Shown here one piece after another: positions 793 to 32,575 of a DNA stretch of 64,000 nucleotides. The stretch is from positions 36,339-100,338 of the forward strand of contig JBBCKI010000031.1 in NCBI GenBank assembly GCA_037190965.1, in the 5' to 3' direction. This DNA is from Chthoniobacteraceae bacterium. GTDB lineage: Bacteria > Verrucomicrobiota > Verrucomicrobiia > Chthoniobacterales > Chthoniobacteraceae. Every line of letters starts with the position of its first letter. Within the stretch, counting starts at the first letter, position 1. The notes beneath the pieces are model-generated. The model worked only from the letters and a program-made list of their open reading frames with translations. It did no database searches and was not told the DNA's origin. Position numbers and translations under genes: made by a program.

Positions 793-1305
793 ATGGGCTC
801 TATCGGATTACGGATCTTTTCATCCATCTTTATCCTCATCGGAGGCGCTGTTTTGTTTTTCGGAGTCAAGTCACTGGTGACGGCAAAGGCGAGCGAAACC
901 TGGCCAACGGTTCAGGGCAAGGTGGTTTCATCCTCTGTTGACTCGAAACAGGGCGATAAGGGGGGCACCACTTACCATGCCGAGGTTCTGTATGAGTATA
1001 CCGTCGCGGGTCAACTCCAGTCATCCAATAATATCGCCTTCGGCAGTTATGGATCGAGCGATCCATCGCGCGCGAGGGGAACCGTCAACAAGTATCCGGC
1101 GGGCTCGGCGGTGACGGTTCATTACTCGCCGACCAACCCGGGAAAAAGCGTTCTTGAAGCAGGAATTAGCGGAAAGACCTTTTTCCTGCCTGCTTTTGGA
1201 ACCGTTTTCTTTAGCGTGGGTTTGTGGGTGTTCATCTACATGCCGGGCATCATTGCGCGACAGCGTGCTGCAAGCAACGGCCAGAATCCAAGTTTTACTA
1301 ACTAG
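793..1305 (+). CDS. DUF3592 family membrane protein
   Basis: N- and C-terminal TM helices around WPTVQGKVVSS...YEYTVAG...VTVHYSPTNPGKSVLE. Confidence 0.8.
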   Translation: MGSIGLRIFSSIFILIGGAVLFFGVKSLVTAKASETWPTVQGKVVSSSVDSKQGDKGGTTYHAEVLYEYTVAGQLQSSNNIAFGSYGSSDPSRARGTVNKYPAGSAVTVHYSPTNPGKSVLEAGISGKTFFLPAFGTVFFSVGLWVFIYMPGIIARQRAASNGQNPSFTN

Positions 1306-9326: not shown

Positions 9327-9951
9327 TCACTGAAGGTAGGGTGGTCCAGGGACTTCGCTCGGACTCACGAAATTAGAGGCTTCACCGTCGTCCGGGAGCT
9401 TCACTGCAGACACCGGTGGTCCGGGGACTGGCGGTCTCACTAAAATCGCGTCCTGATCGACGGTGAACTGCACCCCCGCCAATTGGCCCACATAGCGCAG
9501 CGCGTCCCAGCTGGGGACATCGTTGAGACGGAGCGTCACCAGCGCGGAGCGATTGACGTCGGCTTGCAACACAAAGCTCAACTTCAACCCACCGTCCGAC
9601 GCTTTAATGATCTGTTGGCGAAGGTATTCGAGGGCGGAATCGAGCGTCGCCTCCCGGATCTCCACCTGCGGCTTTCAGCTTTCTCAATTGCACTATCGTT
9701 TTAGCCGCCGGCGTAACTTCAGCCGCCGCGATCATTGCGAGATATTTCTGCGCCATGGCGCTCTTGGAATGCTCGTCGAGAAGCAACTCGAACTTCGCCC
9801 TCGCCGACTCGTAATCGCCGGCTAAATAATCGTTTTGAGCATCGCGGGCGAACGATTCTGGCCCCCGCGCGAAGAGGATCGGAATGGACGAGATGACAAA
9901 CAGAACAGGCAGGAGACGCTTAGCCGCTGCGCTAATGAAATCTTTCATCAT
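9327..9951 (-). pseudogene. Frameshifted paralogue of the TPR + secretin-N-like protein at 11229-11804
   Basis: ORFs 9604-9951 and 9327-9665 align in order with the intact paralogue. ATCCTG is replaced by AAAG at about 9672-9675 (net loss of 2 nt). Confidence 0.8.
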
Positions 9952-11228: not shown

Positions 11229-11804
11229 CTAGGGAGTCTCCGCCGCGCGGACTTCCACCGGCGCCGCCGCAGGGACACTCGCCGCCTTGGGCCTGACGGA
11301 GATGGCATATTGATCAATGGAAAACTGCACCGCCGCCAGTTCGCCCACGTAGCGAAGTGCCTCCGTGAACGGGATATTGCTCAGGCGCAACGTGACCGGT
11401 GCGGCGCTGTTGACGCCCGGCTGCAGCACGAAACTTGGCTTCAGCTTGTCCCCCGACGCCTTTGCCGCCTGCTGCCTAAGATATTCGAGGGCGGAATCAA
11501 GCGTCGCCTCCCGGATTTCCACCTGCGGCAGGATCAGCTTCTTCAACTGCGCTTCCGTCTTGGCTCCCGGCCCAGCCTGAGACTCGGCCGCCGCGATCAT
11601 TTTGAGATAGTTCTTCGCCACGACATTTTTCGGGTCGGCAGCGAGGACCAGCTCGAATTTCGTCTTTGCCGACGAGTAGTTGCCCGCCGCGTATTCGCGC
11701 TGGGCTTCGGTGATCAGCGATGCCTGCGCCCGTGCGGGGGTGGCGGGGAGCGTCATTGCGGCCAGGAGGAGGGAGAACAGGGAGCGTTTGATGAGCAGGT
11801 TCAT
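11229..11804 (-). CDS. Secreted protein with a TPR-like repeat and a secretin-N/STN-like domain
   Basis: Signal peptide ending PARA, TPR-like AQREYAAGNYSSAKTKFELVLAADPKN, then LILPQVEIREATLDSALEYL...VTLRLSNIPFTEALRYV. Confidence 0.75.
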   Translation of the reverse strand: MNLLIKRSLFSLLLAAMTLPATPARAQASLITEAQREYAAGNYSSAKTKFELVLAADPKNVVAKNYLKMIAAAESQAGPGAKTEAQLKKLILPQVEIREATLDSALEYLRQQAAKASGDKLKPSFVLQPGVNSAAPVTLRLSNIPFTEALRYVGELAAVQFSIDQYAISVRPKAASVPAAAPVEVRAAETP

Positions 11805-11894
11805 GAGGATTGAGGGGTTGAAATCGTCCGCTTCAGCAAGGCCCATGTTAGACGATCTTCCCGGCGAAATCAATCTTTGAACGCCGGGCAGCGA

Positions 11895-12302
11895 TCAACT
11901 GCCGCAGCTTGACGGGCGTTTTCTTTCATTCCAAATTTTACCGCAATCACTGCATTTGTATCTGTTCTTGGCGAACAGGAATGGAAAATTAAGAAGCAGC
12001 AGTGACAAAAAGGAAATACGCCTTGGCAATTCGTCTATTCCTGTATTGGCAGAGTCGCAGAAAGGACATTGAACGGCTACAGCCTCTTCCAGGGCAACAC
12101 TCTCTTGCTCCAATAATTCCTTGGCTTTAGGAATATCCTCCTCTGCAATCTGAACTCGCACTCCGCCAATCGCATTGGAATACAACCAATCCATTTGCAC
12201 AAGATTCTCATCTTGAACAAATGCGGGAATCCCACCTGCTTCCAGCCGCATACGGAGCAAATGAGCCTCTTCGGGTTTACTGAATGTAGCGATGGTAATC
12301 AC
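11895..12302 (-). CDS. DUF2007 family protein with a C-terminal CxxC...CxxC zinc ribbon (cassette gene)
   Basis: EAHLLRMRLEAGGIPAFVQDEN...AIGGVRVQI, plus CPFC and CSDC. GTG start lies 6 nt after an attC-like core. Confidence 0.8.
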   Translation of the reverse strand: MITIATFSKPEEAHLLRMRLEAGGIPAFVQDENLVQMDWLYSNAIGGVRVQIAEEDIPKAKELLEQESVALEEAVAVQCPFCDSANTGIDELPRRISFLSLLLLNFPFLFAKNRYKCSDCGKIWNERKRPSSCGS

Positions 12303-12308
12303 AATTTC

Positions 12309-12367
12309 GCCTAATGTCCAAGGTGAGTCACGGAGTGCCGGGGAATTGTCCCACCGCTTTGCCCCCA
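12309..12367 (-). mobile_element. Degenerate attC-like site 4
   Basis: Minus strand: AAAGC-GGTGGGAC...GACTCACC-TTGGAC-ATTAGGC. R' is a GTTRRRY with G changed to A; R'' is lost. Confidence 0.5.
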
Positions 12368-12580
12368 TCGCGGAAAACGACCAAATAAAATTCCGCAAAT
12401 AAGAATAAGTCGGAACGCCTCCCAAAACGCAATCGGCCGAACACCAAATATCTGAGGAATGGTCATGTTCCAAAGCCATCGCAGGAGAGCCGGGGCGAGA
12501 AAAAAGAAAATTACGGCAATGAGCGCAATCGCAGCCAGATCAGGCCCGGCAGGATTAAATTTGTAAACACCGGCAAGCAT
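12311..12580 (-). CDS. Small membrane protein (cassette gene)
   Basis: Hydrophobic ORF (LLRWLWNMTIPQIFGVRPIAFWEAFRLILICGILFG) that reads into attC-like site 4. Confidence 0.6.
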   Translation of the reverse strand: MLAGVYKFNPAGPDLAAIALIAVIFFFLAPALLRWLWNMTIPQIFGVRPIAFWEAFRLILICGILFGRFPRWGQSGGTIPRHSVTHLGH

Positions 12581-12607
12581 ATTCGAAAATGTGGGATGTT
12601 GTTGGAG

Positions 12608-13117
12608 TTATTGGATGACTTGTATCTGCTGTAAGAGTTTTGAGTCCTTTCCTGATGAACTCACCCATAAAATCGTAAAACCAGTCGTAAATAAAAGCCA
12701 GGTGATTGCAAAGGCGATAGTCAGAAATGTTGAACGATCGAATCCTGCCGCTAACACCGATTTGTTTGGATCGGCAGGATCATATTTGACAAAAACGGCG
12801 TTGGCATTAATAAGCTTATCATGAATAGCTTTATGCTCTTCTCGTGTGCTGCTGCCACCATAACCATATGCGATGCGATCCCCAGAATAGCTGACGCCTT
12901 CTACTGAATAGTCATACAGCACCTTGACCTTCCAAGTTGTTCCATCGCCGTCGGAATTTTCTTCGATCTTACATTTACTGATGTTCGCCGGCACTTGGGG
13001 CCATGAGAGCGACCTTCTTCCTTGATAATATGAAAACCCGCCGTAGCCGAGCAACCCAAAGCCGACAGCAAAAAAGAGGCCAATGAAGAGAGCAAAGAGG
13101 ATCATGCCGTTTTTCAT
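12608..13117 (-). CDS. DUF3592 family membrane protein (cassette gene)
   Basis: Same architecture as 793-1305 (WPQVPANI...YDYSVEG...VFVKYDPADPNKSVL). ATG lies 6 nt after an attC-like core. Confidence 0.8.
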   Translation of the reverse strand: MKNGMILFALFIGLFFAVGFGLLGYGGFSYYQGRRSLSWPQVPANISKCKIEENSDGDGTTWKVKVLYDYSVEGVSYSGDRIAYGYGGSSTREEHKAIHDKLINANAVFVKYDPADPNKSVLAAGFDRSTFLTIAFAITWLLFTTGFTILWVSSSGKDSKLLQQIQVIQ

Positions 13118-13123
13118 TATTTG

Positions 13124-13184
13124 TCCTAATGATCAAGACTGAGGCACGGCGCGAAGCGGAGCTGCCTCCACCGCCTTGTTTGAC
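13124..13184 (-). mobile_element. attC-like site 3
   Basis: Minus strand: GTCAAAC-AAGGC-GGTGGAGGC...GCCTCAGTC-TTGATC-ATTAGGA. It starts 7 nt after the SUFU stop and has the 5- and 6-nt spacers of attC. Confidence 0.6.
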
Positions 13185-13191
13185 TTGTTTC

Positions 13192-13788
13192 TCATATGAA
13201 AGAATGGCGCGATTCATCCAAGATGGGAGACATCTCCGCCTCTTGGAGTCGCTGTTCAAGGGCTTGGGATCCTTGCTCGCGTGCAAACTCGCGTTCGGAT
13301 TCAGTAATCGGAATCATCCAAAGGAAGTCGACACGGTCACCATTTAGATCAAAACCACGGAATCCGTCTGATTCAAAGTAAGGAGGAAGAAAGAAGTAAG
13401 ATGTCAGTAAAGATGGCTTCGCGGTCATCGGCATTCCGTTGGGAACGGTGTGCCACCAGTGCAGGAAAGTCTTATCCTCAAATGGCATCTCAGCCAAACC
13501 CTTCAGCACGGAGAACATCCACCCCTGCGGTTCCGGCACATACATCAAAATCTCCGCTCTTGAAGACATATGCTTATCACAATCCTGAGGTTGAAGCTGT
13601 CGCTCGTTACTCATCCCACTGGTGATGAGAGTCCAGTATGGACGATCAACCGTCGGCTCGAATTGGTAAATGTCGATGTGAACAGGCTTGATGTCGGTGG
13701 AGTGCATTACATCCTGGGTCATCGGCCCGAAAAATTTCTGATAGTGGCGCTCTCTTGCTTCGAGAAAGCCGTTTGGATGGGTGAGCAT
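13192..13788 (-). CDS. Suppressor-of-fused (SUFU) domain protein (cassette gene)
   Basis: VHIDIYQF, WTLITSGMS and VDFLWMIPITESEREFAREQGSQAL motifs. Confidence 0.85.
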   Translation of the reverse strand: MLTHPNGFLEARERHYQKFFGPMTQDVMHSTDIKPVHIDIYQFEPTVDRPYWTLITSGMSNERQLQPQDCDKHMSSRAEILMYVPEPQGWMFSVLKGLAEMPFEDKTFLHWWHTVPNGMPMTAKPSLLTSYFFLPPYFESDGFRGFDLNGDRVDFLWMIPITESEREFAREQGSQALEQRLQEAEMSPILDESRHSFI

Positions 13789-13796
13789 GGTTTTCT

Positions 13797-13855
13797 GTTG
13801 ATCGATTTAGCTCAGCCGCCGCGCGAGCGCGGTTGGCTGCAGCGCTTGGTTAGGT
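13797..13855 (-). mobile_element. attC site 2 (59 bp)
   Basis: Minus strand: R'' ACCTAAC, spacer CAAGC, L'' GCTGCAGC (extra G), central hairpin, L' GCTGAGC, spacer TAAATC, R' degenerated to GATCAAC. Confidence 0.75.
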
Positions 13856-13976
13856 GTTGCGGTTGCTTGGAGGAATCGCACGAATAGATATCACGACGGC
13901 AAAAGCAAGAAGATTTAAGATACCGCAGTTCCCTGCTCGCGCGCTAGCGTCAAGGGAATGGAAAGAAAGCAAGACG

Positions 13977-14077
13977 GCATAAGGCACGATCAATCCTCGC
14001 CTGCCACACGGCCCGCTGGGGGCCACGATGGCTACGAAAGCGCGATGGCCGGGTTCGCTGCGGCACCCTGGTTAGGT
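13977..14077 (-). mobile_element. attC-like site 1, right end degenerate
   Basis: Minus strand: ACCTAAC-CAGGG-TGCCGCAGCGAACCCGGCC...GGCCGTGTGGCA forms an imperfect hairpin. No intact GTTRRRY. Confidence 0.55.
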
Positions 14078-14784
14078 GGCAAATACTCACAGCCAAACTT
14101 GGTATTCTTCATGGAAGCACAACCAGCGATATTCAAAAGCAAAGAACCACACAGCACTATGAACAGCCAAGAGAACACAACACGCCGTTTGGCTCGTAAG
14201 CTCAAAGTCGTCAACGCAACATAGTAACTCCACCCCACAAAAGCTGCGAAGTATATGTTTGCGGAACTATTTGGGACAACAGGGGCAAGAAGCATGAAGA
14301 ACGGAAATCCTGCGGGACTAAAAACCGGCGGCAGCAGAATGCCCGCCCAACTGAATTGCCAATCTTCTACAAAGGCCATTGCGATAATCGCCGCAATCCA
14401 AGCCACTACGCAAAGCGAGCCTTTCAGCTGCAACGAAATCTGTGATGATTGCTCCATGCGTACGATGATTGGCAGTGGCCCGAAATCTATTCCGCGCTCT
14501 CGGTATGCTTCGTTCCAGTTGTAAATCGGCTCAGTCGCCCAATCAAAACGATCTCCATTATTTCCGACCGCCTCGGTTGGGCAGCACTTGACACCTCCTT
14601 CTTCTAGAAGCTTAGCCTCTTCTTCATTTTCCGGCTGCTTAAAAACATATGATGTTCCAGTCCGGTCATCGCGTTTGACATTATTGGGCGCAGTCTCGCG
14701 GCACAAATCGCAATCAGTGCATTGACTGTCGATGTAGTAACGACCCGGGATATTCAACGGGTATCTTTCGTAGAAATTGGCCAT
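14032..14784 (-). CDS. Single-cluster ferredoxin domain fused to a membrane domain (first cassette)
   Basis: YYIDSQCTDCDLCRETAP...CCPTEAVG followed by about four TM segments. The ORF reads into attC-like site 1. Confidence 0.7.
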   Translation of the reverse strand: MANFYERYPLNIPGRYYIDSQCTDCDLCRETAPNNVKRDDRTGTSYVFKQPENEEEAKLLEEGGVKCCPTEAVGNNGDRFDWATEPIYNWNEAYRERGIDFGPLPIIVRMEQSSQISLQLKGSLCVVAWIAAIIAMAFVEDWQFSWAGILLPPVFSPAGFPFFMLLAPVVPNSSANIYFAAFVGWSYYVALTTLSLRAKRRVVFSWLFIVLCGSLLLNIAGCASMKNTKFGCEYLPPNQGAAANPAIALS

Positions 14785-14800
14785 GGCGTTTTTGGTTTCC

Positions 14801-14818
14801 GCCTAACATTATGTAGAT
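14801..14818 (-). mobile_element. attI-like site
   Basis: Minus strand: ATCTAC-ATAAT-GTTAGGC, an intact core 16 nt before the first ATG. It is preceded by AT-rich DNA rather than an attC hairpin. Confidence 0.5.
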
Positions 14819-14881
14819 TGAGAAATATCTATTTAAATTCTGTAAAACCAGAAAAAAGTGGATCGAAATGCCATAGGGGTG

Positions 14882-15124
14882 CATGACGGGAAAGTTACGA
14901 TAAGAAAAAACAGGGTGCGAGAGAGCAGCGGTGACAGGCTCGCGCCGCCGGGCCCGAGGTTCGCCTCCCATCGTTCCCCCGTGGCTTTATGAGGGCCGCA
15001 TCCCGGCAAACGCGGTCCGTCCTGCGGGGATGAACGCCAAACGCGTCTCGAAAACCTATTCCGCGCTCTCGGCGAGAGCGGTCTACCTTGTATCGTCCTC
15101 CAAATCGGTCACTTTCCCGTCATG
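14882..15124 (+). repeat. Family-1 element, copy B (full length)
   Basis: Perfect 14-bp outer IR CATGACGGGAAAGT/ACTTTCCCGTCATG encloses a degenerate left REP, a CATCCC/GGGATG stem and the right REP. Confidence 0.85.
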
Positions 15125-15219: not shown

Positions 15220-16176
15220 ATGACCCAAAAACCGCGCATTCCCGTCACCATCCTCACCGGCTTCCTGGGCGCCGGTAAAACCACGCTGCTCAACTACATC
15301 CTCAAGCAGCAGCACGGCTACAAATTCGCCGTTATCGTCAACGAAATCGGCGAGATCGGCATCGACGGGCAATTGGTGGAGAACGCCAAGGAAGAGATCG
15401 TGCAAATGAACAACGGCTGCGTCTGCTGCACCGTGCGCAAGGATCTCGTCAAGAGCGTCCAGACCCTCATCAAACGCGGCGGATTCGACTACCTCCTCAT
15501 TGAGACGACCGGCATCGCCGATCCCGGCCCCGTCGCCCAGACCTTCCTCAATATCCCCCAGTTGCAACAGTACGTGCAGCTCGACTCGATCATCACCGTC
15601 GTTGACGCGGAGCAGATCGAAAAACAGATGGCAGACGTGGAGACCGCCCGCGAACAGATCGCGATGGCCGATTTTGTTCTCCTCAACAAGACCGACCTGG
15701 TGGACGAGCCTCGGCTGCAATGCCTGGAAACGAAGATCGCCAACCTCAACCCGCACGCGCAGACCTTCCGGACCAACCAGTCGGAGGTGAACCTGAAGGA
15801 AGTACTCGATATGGCGGCGTTCGACGTCGACCGGAAGCTGGCCGTTGACCCGAAGTTCCTCGACGAACTCAATACCCGGCATCACCATGACATCCAATCG
15901 TGCTCGTACACCTTCGATCAACCTTTCAGCATCGAACGTTTCGAGGCGTTCGTCGGAGAGTTGAGCGACAAAGCGAAGATCTTTCGCTCGAAGGGGTTCG
16001 TCTCGCTGGCCGGGAACCCGCGCCGCGCGCTGTTCCACGGCGTCAACAACCGCTTCACGATCTTCTGGGATCGCCTCTGGGAGAAGAACGAAACGCGCAC
16101 CAGCCAGTTCGTCTTTATCGGCAAGGGGCTCGACGCCGAGGCGATCCGCGCCGGTCTGGCGAAGTGTCTGGCATAG
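15220..16176 (+). CDS. COG0523/CobW-family metallochaperone GTPase
   Basis: [30 protein letters not shown] and NKTD motifs, and a C-terminal CobW_C domain (FRSKG). Confidence 0.93.
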
Positions 16177-29683: not shown

Positions 29684-32575
29684 CTAGAGCGGTGCGCTGT
29701 TTGCGCCCACGCGGGTGGGACGGAAGATCAGCCGAACCGCGTCAAGCCGCAACCGGGCGGAGGCCAGCGCGTCGCGCAGATCGTATAGATGCTGCTCCGC
29801 CGCTTCGATTTCCGCCTGGCGCACGTTCGGGTTGACCGCCTGCAAATCACGAAGCCGGTCGGCCTCGGCGGTAATCGCCCCGTGCATGGCAAGCAGGCTG
29901 GCGGCGACGATCTGATCGCCCTTTGCCTCGGCCAGTTTGTGGGAATGCTCCAGCAAGCGGGGCAGGAGTTTGTAGCAGAGATCCGTCTTGCCAAGCACGG
30001 CGCTGAGCGGGCCGTTCTCCAATTTCCCCAGCGGCTCCTTGAGCTCTTCAAACCGGTTGTCGATGATGACGCTCACCGGCGTGGCGGGAAGGAAACGGCT
30101 GGTGTGCAGTTCCGCTGGGGCCACGGGCTCCAGCAGGTAGAGCGCCTCCAACAGGACCGACTCCGGCCCCGGGACGGGCGTCACTGCGAGCGAAGCATTG
30201 CCGAGAGGGCTGCCAAGCAGCATCTCGAAAGCGCCGCGCACCGCCGGGTGATCCCACGTGAGGAACCCGACATCTTCGCGTGAAAGCGCCCGCTGTCGGT
30301 CGGCGGTAAGCGTGGTGCCCTCCGCCGGAATCCCGGGGAACGGCTCGCCCCCGGCGCCGGGAATAACGATCCAGGTGCGCGGGGCGATGTCCTCCACATG
30401 CACGCCATACTGGTCGAACACGCGGAGCATGAAATCATCGAGAGTGGTGTCGGCGTCGAGCGCGGTGATCTCCTTGATCATCGCCGCGGCGGCCCCGGGA
30501 CGGCTGCTGTTGAGTTCCAGCAAGCGATCCTGCCCTTCGGCAAGCCGGGCGCGAACCTCCTCGCGTGCGGCCTTCCCTTCGGCAAGCAATGTTTCGAAAC
30601 CGGCGGGAGCGGCCACCGCTTTCGCCTTGGCCTTTGGTTTTGCGGCGGTTTTGGCCTCTTTGGTGGCTTTGGCGTCTTTGGTTTTGGCCCCCTTCTTCGG
30701 CTTTGCCTCCGCAGCCCCCTCCCCTAACGCGTGGTTTCTCACCGATTCCTGGAACCGCGCGAAAAGCTCCGCGCCGCCGTGGAGGCTTTCTTCAAAAGCA
30801 TTCAATCCTTCGTGGAACCACCGCGCCAACACGCCGTAAGCGCCACACTCCACATACGGGACGTGAATCTGGATATCGGCAGTCTGACCGATGCGATCGA
30901 GCCGCCCGATCCGCTGTTCAAGCAGTTCGGGGTTCTCCGGCAGATCAAACAAAACGAGATGGTGGGCGAACTGGAAGTTGCGCCCTTCGCTGCCGATCTC
31001 GGAACAAATCAGGATCTGCGCGCCCTCTTCCTCCGCAAAATAGGCGGCGTTGCGGTCGCGCTGCAAAAGGGTGAGCCCTTCATGGAAGACAGCCGAAGGG
31101 GCGCTGGTTTTTTCGCGCAGGGCGGCTTCCACCGCCTCGGCCTTCTCGCGGGTGCGGCAGATGAGCAACACCTTCGCGCCCTTGAGCTTCTTGAGAAAAG
31201 CGACGAGCCATTCGATGCGCGGGTCGCCGTTGAGATCGACGGCTTCTCCCTGAAACTCTGCGAGCGCGGCGGCGGGCTCCCCCGCAAGCGGAATCAGTTT
31301 GGCCGAACGCTTCGGGAATCCCGTAAGCGCGGTGCGCGTGTTGCGGAACATGACGCGCCCCGTGCCGTGCTGATCGAGCAATTCCTCAAGCAGCGGTTTG
31401 GCGGCCTCGGCATCCCCTCCCTGCAGGGCTTCCACATGACGGCTGATGCGGCCGGGCATGGCGGCGAGACGGGCGACTTCCTTGACGGTAAGCTTCTTCT
31501 TGCTGATGAGCTTGCCCGCGATCTGAGCGACGGGCTGATAATCGTCGGCTTCCTTCAGGAAAGCTTCGAGGGAAGGGTAGCGATCCGGATCAAGGAGACG
31601 CAACCGGGCGAAGTGCCCTTCAGCCCCGAGTTGCTGCGGAGTCGCGGTCAAAAGCAGCAATCCCTTGGTGGCGGTGCCTAGTCGCTCCACCAGCGTGTAC
31701 TCCGGGCTGGCCTCTTCGGGAGTCCAGACGAGGTGATGCGCTTCGTCCACGACCAGCAGATCCCAGCCCGCCTCCGTCACCTGGGTGCGGCGGGCTTCGT
31801 TGCGCGCCAGCCAGCCCACGGGAGCGAGGACGAGTTGATCGTCAAGGAACGGGTTGGCCCCGGCGTTGTTCGCCTCGATCGCCACGCAGCGCTCTTCATC
31901 AAAGATGGAAAAGAGGAGGTTGAAGCGGCGCAGCAACTCCACAAACCATTGATGGATAAGCGCCTCAGGAACAAGAATGAGAATCCGGGAGGCCTTCCCC
32001 GTAAGGTGCAGGCGATGGAGGATAAGGCACGCCTCGATGGTCTTCCCAAGGCCGACTTCATCCGCCAGCAAAACGCGCGGCGCATGGCGATTGGCAACTT
32101 CATGCGCAATCGAAAGCTGATGCGGAATCAGATCGATGCGCGCCCCCGAAAAGCCGTAAGCAGGGGACTTCAGAACGCGGTGCTGGTGTTGCAGCGCTTC
32201 CATCCGCAGGTCGAAGGCCGACGAGTCGTCCACCTGCCCCACGGGAATCCGGTCGCCCGGCTTGTCGAAAGTCAGGAAGTCGCTCAGTTGCGTCTCCACA
32301 AGGCGTTCGCCCTTCGCGCCTCCATAGGTCAGCACCCCGTCGGAGCGTTCATTGACGATCTGCACCACGAAGCTTTCCCCTTCATGCGAGCGGACCGTAT
32401 CGCCGACTTTGAAACGGACCCGCCGCAATGGGGCGATCCCACCGGCGTAAAGCCGCATGGCGTTGGTGGCGGGATAGAACATCTTGACCCTGTTGTTCTC
32501 CACATCGAGCACGATGCCCAATCCCAGTTCGGGTTCCGGTTCGCTAATCCAACGCTGACCTGCTGCAAAACGCAT
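29684..32575 (-). CDS. rapA: RNA polymerase-associated protein RapA
   Basis: [42 protein letters not shown] and [12 protein letters not shown] motifs. Confidence 0.95.

What the first reader, a model, noticed from the sequence alone, without database searches (positions are those of the whole stretch)
11895..14870. Integrase-less integron cassette array with an attI-like site and uniformly inactivated attC cores
Seen: five co-oriented, AT-richer genes on the minus strand (ferredoxin-membrane fusion, SUFU, DUF3592, small membrane protein, DUF2007-Zn ribbon). The first follows an intact GTTAGGC core in AT-rich, non-hairpin DNA. Four attC-like hairpins lie within the array, and 13797-13855 is 59 bp with R'' ACCTAAC, 5- and 6-nt spacers and the extra G in L''. 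Downstream start codons sit 6-8 nt after the cores. All three readable R' cores have lost GTT (GATCAAC, ATTAGGA, ATTAGGC), the attC expected after DUF3592 is reduced to CTCCAAC, and there is no intI next to attI. Established: IntI recombines at GTT, and attC clusters lacking an integrase (CALINs) exist. Inference: this array has been locked in place and is turning into an ordinary operon while the ORFs stay open.
Basis: partly seen in the sequence, partly recalled or inferred. Interest (0 to 1): 0.75.

Follow-up and report, generated by a model that had tools for sequence, protein, structure and literature searches.

The report
Decaying integron array keeping its genes
A soil bacterium with no detectable integron integrase carries a worn-out row of captured gene cassettes whose recombination sites are damaged throughout while most of the genes stay open, likely an ordinary late stage of a known kind of element rather than a purpose-built lock.

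Summary
The array is real. An attC model built from relatives scores 13797-13855 at 32.5 bits (E 7e-6); three more sites score weakly. The upstream GTTAGGC has the attI layout seen beside intI in relatives. No IntI was found in this 97%-complete genome or in five congeners. SUFU and DUF3592 homologues are intact cassettes elsewhere. The R' cores have lost GTT as stated, but the damage is not GTT-specific. 15 of 84 other conserved attC positions are also changed (GTT 4 of 12; p=0.25), and none of the four sites folds better than shuffles. One attC is nearly gone, a sixth cassette is a 45-codon remnant, and the first gene looks like two cassettes fused at a lost attC. IntI-less relatives show no GTT-over-AAC bias. 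The open genes are likely under purifying selection. Best reading: a degenerate CALIN left by intI loss, decaying by drift around retained genes, a state Cury et al. 2016 proposed. Selective locking is unproven but not excluded; co-transcription is untested. This scan noted similar decayed arrays in other genomes.

The parts
14801..14818 (-). attI-like simple site: ATCTAC box, 5-nt spacer, intact core GTTAGGC; no intI upstream
   Evidence: Same layout as the cores between intI and the first cassette in relatives, e.g. GTCTAC-5-GTT in G006 and GCCTAA-5-GTT in G017. Only genome match of that pattern with a GTTAGRY core, in 80% AT DNA (pattern written after seeing the site). Core pairs 6 of 7 with the first R''.
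14032..14784 (-). 250-aa ORF: ferredoxin part (residues 1-109) fused to a membrane-protein part (110-250); likely two cassettes joined after loss of the attC between them; reads 46 nt into the next attC
   Evidence: Fer4_13. Of 19 other hits of 137-438 aa none covers more than 60% of it. Met110 aligns to Met1 of stand-alone P0007, 145 aa, 56% identical.
13981..14077 (-). attC s1, 93-bp type, heavily decayed: extra spacer base, L' broken, R' GTGCCTT
   Evidence: Aligns to intact 93-bp sites with 27 substitutions and 6 gaps; model 11.3 bits, E 1; z +1.0
13850..13987 (-). Remnant sixth cassette: 45-codon open frame ending at the TAA inside R'' of s2
   Evidence: Sequence. No credible homologue among 1.84 billion representatives: 3 weak hits in long, multi-stretch proteins.
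13797..13855 (-). attC s2, 59 bp, best preserved; R' GATCAAC
   Evidence: 32.5 bits, E 7e-6 in window; E 4.6e-4 genome-wide; top genome hit of two position-weight models, one trained only on 13 intI-adjacent sites
13192..13788 (-). SUFU-family cassette gene, 198 aa, full length
   Evidence: PF05076; 60% homologue L063 lies between two intact attC sites; branch dN 0.048
13124..13184 (-). attC s3, 61 bp; R'' GTCAAAC, L' partly unpaired, R' ATTAGGA
   Evidence: 19.2 bits, E 0.013; 3 of 24 conserved positions changed
12608..13117 (-). DUF3592 cassette gene, 169 aa
   Evidence: PF12158; best homologue in 250 order genomes (G028, 37%) is a cassette between attC sites
12581..12607 (-). 27-nt spacer where an attC is expected; only CTCCAAC remains
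   Evidence: Sequence; no model hit; attC origin inferred from position only
12311..12580 (-). Small membrane protein, 89 aa; the last ~17 residues are read-through across attC s5
   Evidence: No Pfam family; the single homologue in 150 family genomes stops a few codons after the aligned part
12309..12367 (-). attC s5: R'' lost, 1-nt deletion in L'', L' intact, R' ATTAGGC
   Evidence: 16.5 bits, E 0.057; highest right-arm score in the genome, 21.3 vs null maximum 19.7; 8 of 24 conserved positions changed
11895..12302 (-). DUF2007 + Zn-ribbon gene, 135 aa, GTG start
   Evidence: PF09413; a 59% homologue in G572 follows an attI-type core nearly identical to that of G553
11850..11917 (-). Possible remnant of a last attC; not distinguishable from chance
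   Evidence: 27 substitutions in 66 aligned bases to the nearest intact site; no model hit

Best explanation
This is an integron cassette array with an attI-like site and damaged attC sites in a genome with no detectable IntI; it was likely left behind when intI was lost, and its attC sites are likely decaying by drift while selection likely keeps most of the proteins intact. Inferred sequence: an integron loaded about seven cassettes at attI; intI was deleted; with no recombinase the attC sites gained substitutions and indels everywhere (cores, L boxes, stems); deletions removed one attC (fusing ferredoxin and membrane genes), nearly removed another, and cut one cassette to a remnant. The array is predicted to be immobile even if an integrase returned, as a by-product of decay. 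Expression from the attI side is plausible but untested.
For: attC identity by independent models. attI layout matches relatives' integrons. Best IntI-profile score 81 bits vs cut-off 265 in G000; 0 of 5 congeners but 61 of 150 family genomes have a match. Cassette origin of homologues. Decay is general: 15 of 84 non-GTT conserved positions changed (18%) vs 8.7% in loci of IntI-negative and 5.1% in loci of IntI-positive relatives; GTT 4 of 12, Fisher p=0.25; no site folds better than shuffles. With both triplets masked, IntI-negative relatives show AAC changed in 16 and GTT in 10 of 87 sites, p=0.29. The genome holds three more low-GC decayed loci (C45, C31:32.5-34.9 kb, C30), one site keeping GTT. 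ORF constraint: all five frames stayed open in 0.7% of 2000 neutral simulations at 5% divergence and in none at 10% or 15%; SUFU branch dN 0.048 vs 0.048 and 0.070 for two homologues, dS saturated.
Against: AAC is intact in 3 of the 4. Elsewhere in this genome R' is also damaged more often than R'', although those sites were found by their left arms and left arms often lie in coding sequence. In IntI-positive loci GTT changed more often than AAC (14 vs 4 of 121, p=0.013; some are spacer mis-parses). The ORF simulation conditions on genes that survived and assumes attC and ORFs aged together. No close strain was available for within-lineage dN/dS. No intI remnant marks the deletion, no congener has the array at this place, and the genome is a 73-contig assembly.
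Confidence: 0.68

Rival explanations
1. Selective locking or domestication: selection favoured mutations that destroy the R' crossover or melt the hairpins, to stop excision by an integrase acting in trans or to relieve the translational block of attC hairpins, turning the array into a stable operon.
For: 4 of 4 triplets hit (p 0.04); R' more damaged than R'' across this genome; hairpins no better than shuffles; ORFs constrained; attC destabilisation raises downstream translation according to the review PMC8876359 (reporting Jacquier 2009, which I did not read).
Against: No GTT enrichment over other conserved positions (p=0.25) or over AAC in IntI-less relatives. No integrase found in 6 genomes of the genus to select against. 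Two of four hits are G>A, among the commonest changes in the site alignments. One cassette was destroyed. Congener G001 keeps GTT at 3 of 3 complete sites without IntI. No shared function among the genes; no transcript data.
Confidence: 0.17
2. The array never had intI here: it was moved by rearrangement from a larger integron, or built at a secondary chromosomal site (attG) by an integrase acting in trans, and then decayed.
For: No intI pseudogene nearby; several separate cassette clusters in this genome; no array between truA and cobW in G012 and G036 or upstream of the TPR/STN gene in G001, G002 and G005; these routes are listed in PMC4889954 and 10.1101/2022.09.11.507474.
Against: The first core carries a family-type attI box and AT-rich upstream DNA, more than the GWT consensus of attG needs. 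95% of CALINs lack an intI pseudogene anyway.
Confidence: 0.11
3. An integrase exists in the unassembled part of the genome and the array is the old, still partly mobile tail of a live system.
For: Assembly is 97% complete in 73 contigs; relatives' intI genes often sit near contig ends.
Against: 0 of 5 congeners has IntI, including an 8-contig genome; only 2 attC hits reach E<0.01 in the genome and both are damaged.
Confidence: 0.03
4. Chance resemblance: an ordinary AT-rich gene cluster with unrelated spacers.
For: Only one site is strongly significant; none folds better than shuffles.
Against: The top three window hits fall at gene junctions on the coding strand; homologues are cassettes; no orthologous attC-less arrangement was found.
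Confidence: 0.01

Closest known systems
[quoted passage not shown] 2016, PMC4889954; passages and section 25 read)
   Same: Two or more same-strand attC sites between small co-oriented genes, no intI nearby; the paper proposes very degenerate CALINs as an intermediate before stabilisation of cassette genes.
   Different: More decayed than a default detector would likely call (one strong, two weak sites with my model); keeps an attI-like core; no IntI found in the genome or genus sample.
Fused gene cassettes of class 1 integrons (PMC4670013, abstract read; PMC8876359, passages read)
   Same: Partial or total loss of an attC joins neighbouring cassettes, sometimes as one ORF.
   Different: Here chromosomal, non-resistance genes (ferredoxin plus membrane protein) and no integrase.
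Xanthomonas integrons with inactivated or deleted intI (10.1101/2025.06.18.660453, passages read)
   Same: Lineage-wide integrase loss freezes cassette arrays; CALINs occur at several chromosomal loci.
   Different: Those arrays are called from recognisable attC sites at conserved loci; this one is lineage-specific in the genomes searched and its sites are far more eroded.
attG/SALIN insertions (10.1101/2022.09.11.507474, passages read)
   Same: Cassettes in a chromosome away from intI.
   Different: attG needs only a GWT core; this array has about seven cassettes and an attI-type box.

Membership tests
CALIN | At least two attC sites on one strand within a few kb | tested here: met
   Own model from relatives: E 7e-6 and 0.013 (third 0.057) within 1.6 kb. 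IntegronFinder's own model was not available, so its default call is untested.
CALIN | No integron integrase nearby | tested here: met
   TIGR02249 best 81 bits vs cut-off 265 in the whole genome; tblastn with a relative's IntI gives nothing on this contig at E<10
CALIN | Cassette organisation: co-oriented ORFs, start close after R', stop in or near R'' | tested here: met
   homologues in intact cassettes
Functional attC site | Paired AAC/GTT triplet and a stable bottom-strand hairpin | tested here: not met
   Triplet broken in 4 of 4 sites; z-scores +1.0 to -1.0 vs -2.8 to -4.0 for intact controls
Functional attC site | Recombined by IntI | not testable with these tools
   Needs an excision assay; IntI1 data in PMC2811028 predict low activity
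Complete (sedentary chromosomal) integron | intI next to attI | tested here: not met
   upstream DNA holds a genome-wide repeat and then cobW
Complete (sedentary chromosomal) integron | attI simple site ahead of the first cassette | tested here: met
   Layout matches intI-adjacent cores in relatives; function untested
Complete (sedentary chromosomal) integron | Pc promoter driving the array | tested here: inconclusive
   One 9/12 sigma-70-like match ends at 14808, but 5 found vs 2.5 +/- 1.4 in shuffles
Operon | Co-transcription of the genes | not testable with these tools
   No RNA holder listed

The most novel reading that the evidence does not exclude
After integrase loss, selection actively erodes the R' arm and stem of attC sites and converts cassette arrays into fixed, co-expressed operons that also spawn new fusion proteins such as this ferredoxin-membrane protein. 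This IntI-less genus (near-intact array in G001, partly damaged in G005, four eroded loci in G000) would then be a natural time series of cassette domestication.
Probability: 0.17. Interest if true: 0.6.

Novelty: new member of a known kind. Interest (0 to 1): 0.3.

Why it matters
It is a concrete case of the end stage Cury et al. only proposed: attC sites eroding while cassette proteins appear to stay under constraint. It also suggests that standard attC scans undercount cassette-derived genes, since this genome has at least four such loci and only two sites score well. If the erosion were shown to be selected rather than neutral, it would give a testable route from mobile cassette to ordinary chromosomal operon. 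As it stands it is an instructive but ordinary CALIN.

Tried and rejected
Sequencing runs: one full holder that may be the source of the DNA, one partial holder from the same study, no RNA holder listed. Laying both gave no strain variants at the cores, only a depth-4 contig with an extra base at 13825 that could come from another organism. First hairpin scan of the genome was unspecific. The first position count (part 1) used wrong offsets for s1 and s5 and was replaced. Genome-collection scan with the membrane half found no relative. The remnant ORF found no credible homologue. Promoter and terminator scan was not clearly above shuffles. CpG-methylation hotspot as the cause of CGTT>CATT was considered and dropped: CpG is not depleted (observed/expected 1.16). 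An orthogonal ATT x ATT recombination between s3 and s5 (identical first bases suffice in PMC2811028) was rejected because it needs compensated R'' partners, which are absent. The C46 masked hit lies inside a GC-rich coding region and was treated as a false positive. Not every homologue is a cassette: of 10 homologue loci scanned, only L063 and L125 had model hits; the closest SUFU homologues (77-83%) have none, and one carries a frameshift. Literature searches found no study that measures attC decay against ORF retention in CALINs; the library lacks most subscription papers and I opened no supplements.
Full report
Observation. The five genes, their lower GC and every quoted motif are present at the stated coordinates. 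To test the attC claim independently I collected intact attC sites from relatives and built a covariance model from 36 of them and position-weight models from 57, or from only the 13 lying beside intI. Part of the larger training set came from loci found by BLAST with the window, so the 13-site model is the fully independent one. In it 13797-13855 is the top genome hit (24.2 bits; reversed-genome null maximum 18.4). The covariance model ranks s2, s3 and s5 as the top 3 of 16 window hits, with E 7e-6, 0.013 and 0.057. s1 scores only 11.3 bits but aligns to the family's 93-bp attC type.

Between s1 and s2 lies a 45-codon frame ending at the TAA of s2's R'', a remnant sixth cassette with no credible homologue. 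The 250-aa first ORF has no full-length homologue among 19 other hits of 137-438 aa (longer and shorter proteins were not searched), and its Met110 aligns to Met1 of a stand-alone 145-aa protein. It is best read as two cassettes fused after loss of an attC, a known event (PMC4670013 abstract). The attC expected after DUF3592 is reduced to a 27-nt spacer. The small membrane gene runs through s5, past the stop of its one family homologue. So about seven cassettes were present. The first core, with an ATCTAC box 5 nt upstream, matches the layout between intI and the first cassette in relatives and is the only such GTTAGRY match in the genome (pattern defined after seeing the site).

Integrase and context. 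The IntI profile reaches 81 bits against a cut-off of 265 in this genome, and tblastn shows no remnant on this contig. None of 5 congeners has a match, while 61 of 150 family genomes do and 81 of 150 have attC hits. G012 and G036 have truA directly before cobW, and three congeners carry the TPR/STN neighbour without the array. A SUFU homologue and the best DUF3592 homologue are cassettes between attC sites, and a DUF2007 homologue follows an attI-type core. Eight of the 10 homologue loci scanned had no attC hit.

Is GTT singled out? At 24 positions conserved in at least 90% of 137 intact sites, the four readable sites have 4 of 12 GTT bases and 15 of 84 other bases changed (Fisher p=0.25). None folds better than shuffles, unlike three intact controls. 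With AAC and GTT masked during detection, 22 loci of IntI-negative relatives gave 87 sites with AAC changed in 16 and GTT in 10 (p=0.29). The 32 loci of IntI-positive relatives gave 121 distinct sites with 4 and 14 (p=0.013, partly spacer mis-parses). Either triplet was damaged in 24 of 87 vs 16 of 121 (p=0.012; about 0.1 at stricter thresholds). These loci were chosen around good attC hits, sites in one array are not independent, and IntI absence in draft genomes is uncertain. This genome has three more decayed low-GC loci; one site keeps GTT. The verdict: general decay fits; a mild R' excess is not excluded.

Are the sites dead? In PMC2811028 (abstract and parts 2-3 of 5 read) compensated second-position changes are tolerated, but a one-sided triplet mismatch lowered IntI1 recombination from 2.2e-3 to 6e-6, and first-position changes in one partner by 1,000- to 10,000-fold. 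All four sites here have one-sided or worse lesions, so low activity is predicted by analogy, not shown.

Are the genes kept? Under neutral substitution all five frames stayed open in 5.9% of 2000 runs at 3% divergence, 0.7% at 5% and none at 10% or 15%. The attC excess over IntI-positive relatives is about 13 points. Over 133 codons SUFU's branch dN (0.048) is no larger than its homologues' (0.048, 0.070), with dS saturated. This favours purifying selection, with the caveat that surviving genes are a selected sample. There are no expression data.

Mechanism. Shown: cassette architecture, attI-like site, no detectable IntI, damage spread over the attC sites, open ORFs. Inferred: loading by an integron, loss of intI, neutral erosion of attC, deletions causing fusion and truncation, selection on the remaining proteins. 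Untested: immobility, co-transcription, any benefit of the erosion.

Comparison and verdict. It meets the CALIN definition with my model and fails the tests for functional attC and complete integron. Cury et al. already wrote that very degenerate CALINs may be an intermediate before stabilisation, and integrase loss freezing arrays is described in Xanthomonas. Earlier notes of this scan describe similar decayed arrays in other genomes. The label 'soil Verrucomicrobium' comes from those notes and was not tested. New member of a known kind; interest 0.3.

Noticed in passing
window 14975-15092: A genome-wide repeat of about 120 bp: 226 BLAST hits, 194 of at least 70 bp. Its palindrome begins with GTAG on one strand and resembles the GTAG-type REP repeats of PMC3733652 (passages read; family not matched)..
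   Followed up: partly
G000:C45:14690-16963 (+): Second low-GC cassette cluster with four open ORFs including an ankyrin-like one; its attC at 15344-15403 keeps GTT but has broken L boxes.
   Followed up: partly
G000:C31:32519-34866 (+), just left of the window: Third, more eroded cassette cluster: five open ORFs with attC left arms at 32519 and 33493.
   Followed up: partly
G000:C30:78716-78814 (-): Decayed attC-like site with both triplets lost, in a low-GC island.
   Followed up: partly
window 9327-9951 (-): A second copy of the TPR/STN gene at 11229-11804, split across two frames (44-71% identical pieces), inserted between ruvX and truA where relatives have none.
   Followed up: no
window 793-1305 (+): A second DUF3592-like gene (34-36% to the cassette copy) behind AT-rich DNA with no attC hit; possibly a fully stripped former cassette.
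   Followed up: partly
L119 (G001:C134:61600-65700, +): An IntI-less congener has a five-cassette array 3-6 kb downstream of cobW with GTT kept at 3 of 3 complete sites; G005 has a site with GAT, like s2 (L120:10052-10111)..
   Followed up: partly
L140 (G021:C265): A ten-site array in an IntI-negative, 95%-complete relative with 8 of 10 sites damaged at AAC, GTT or both; a parallel decay case.
   Followed up: no
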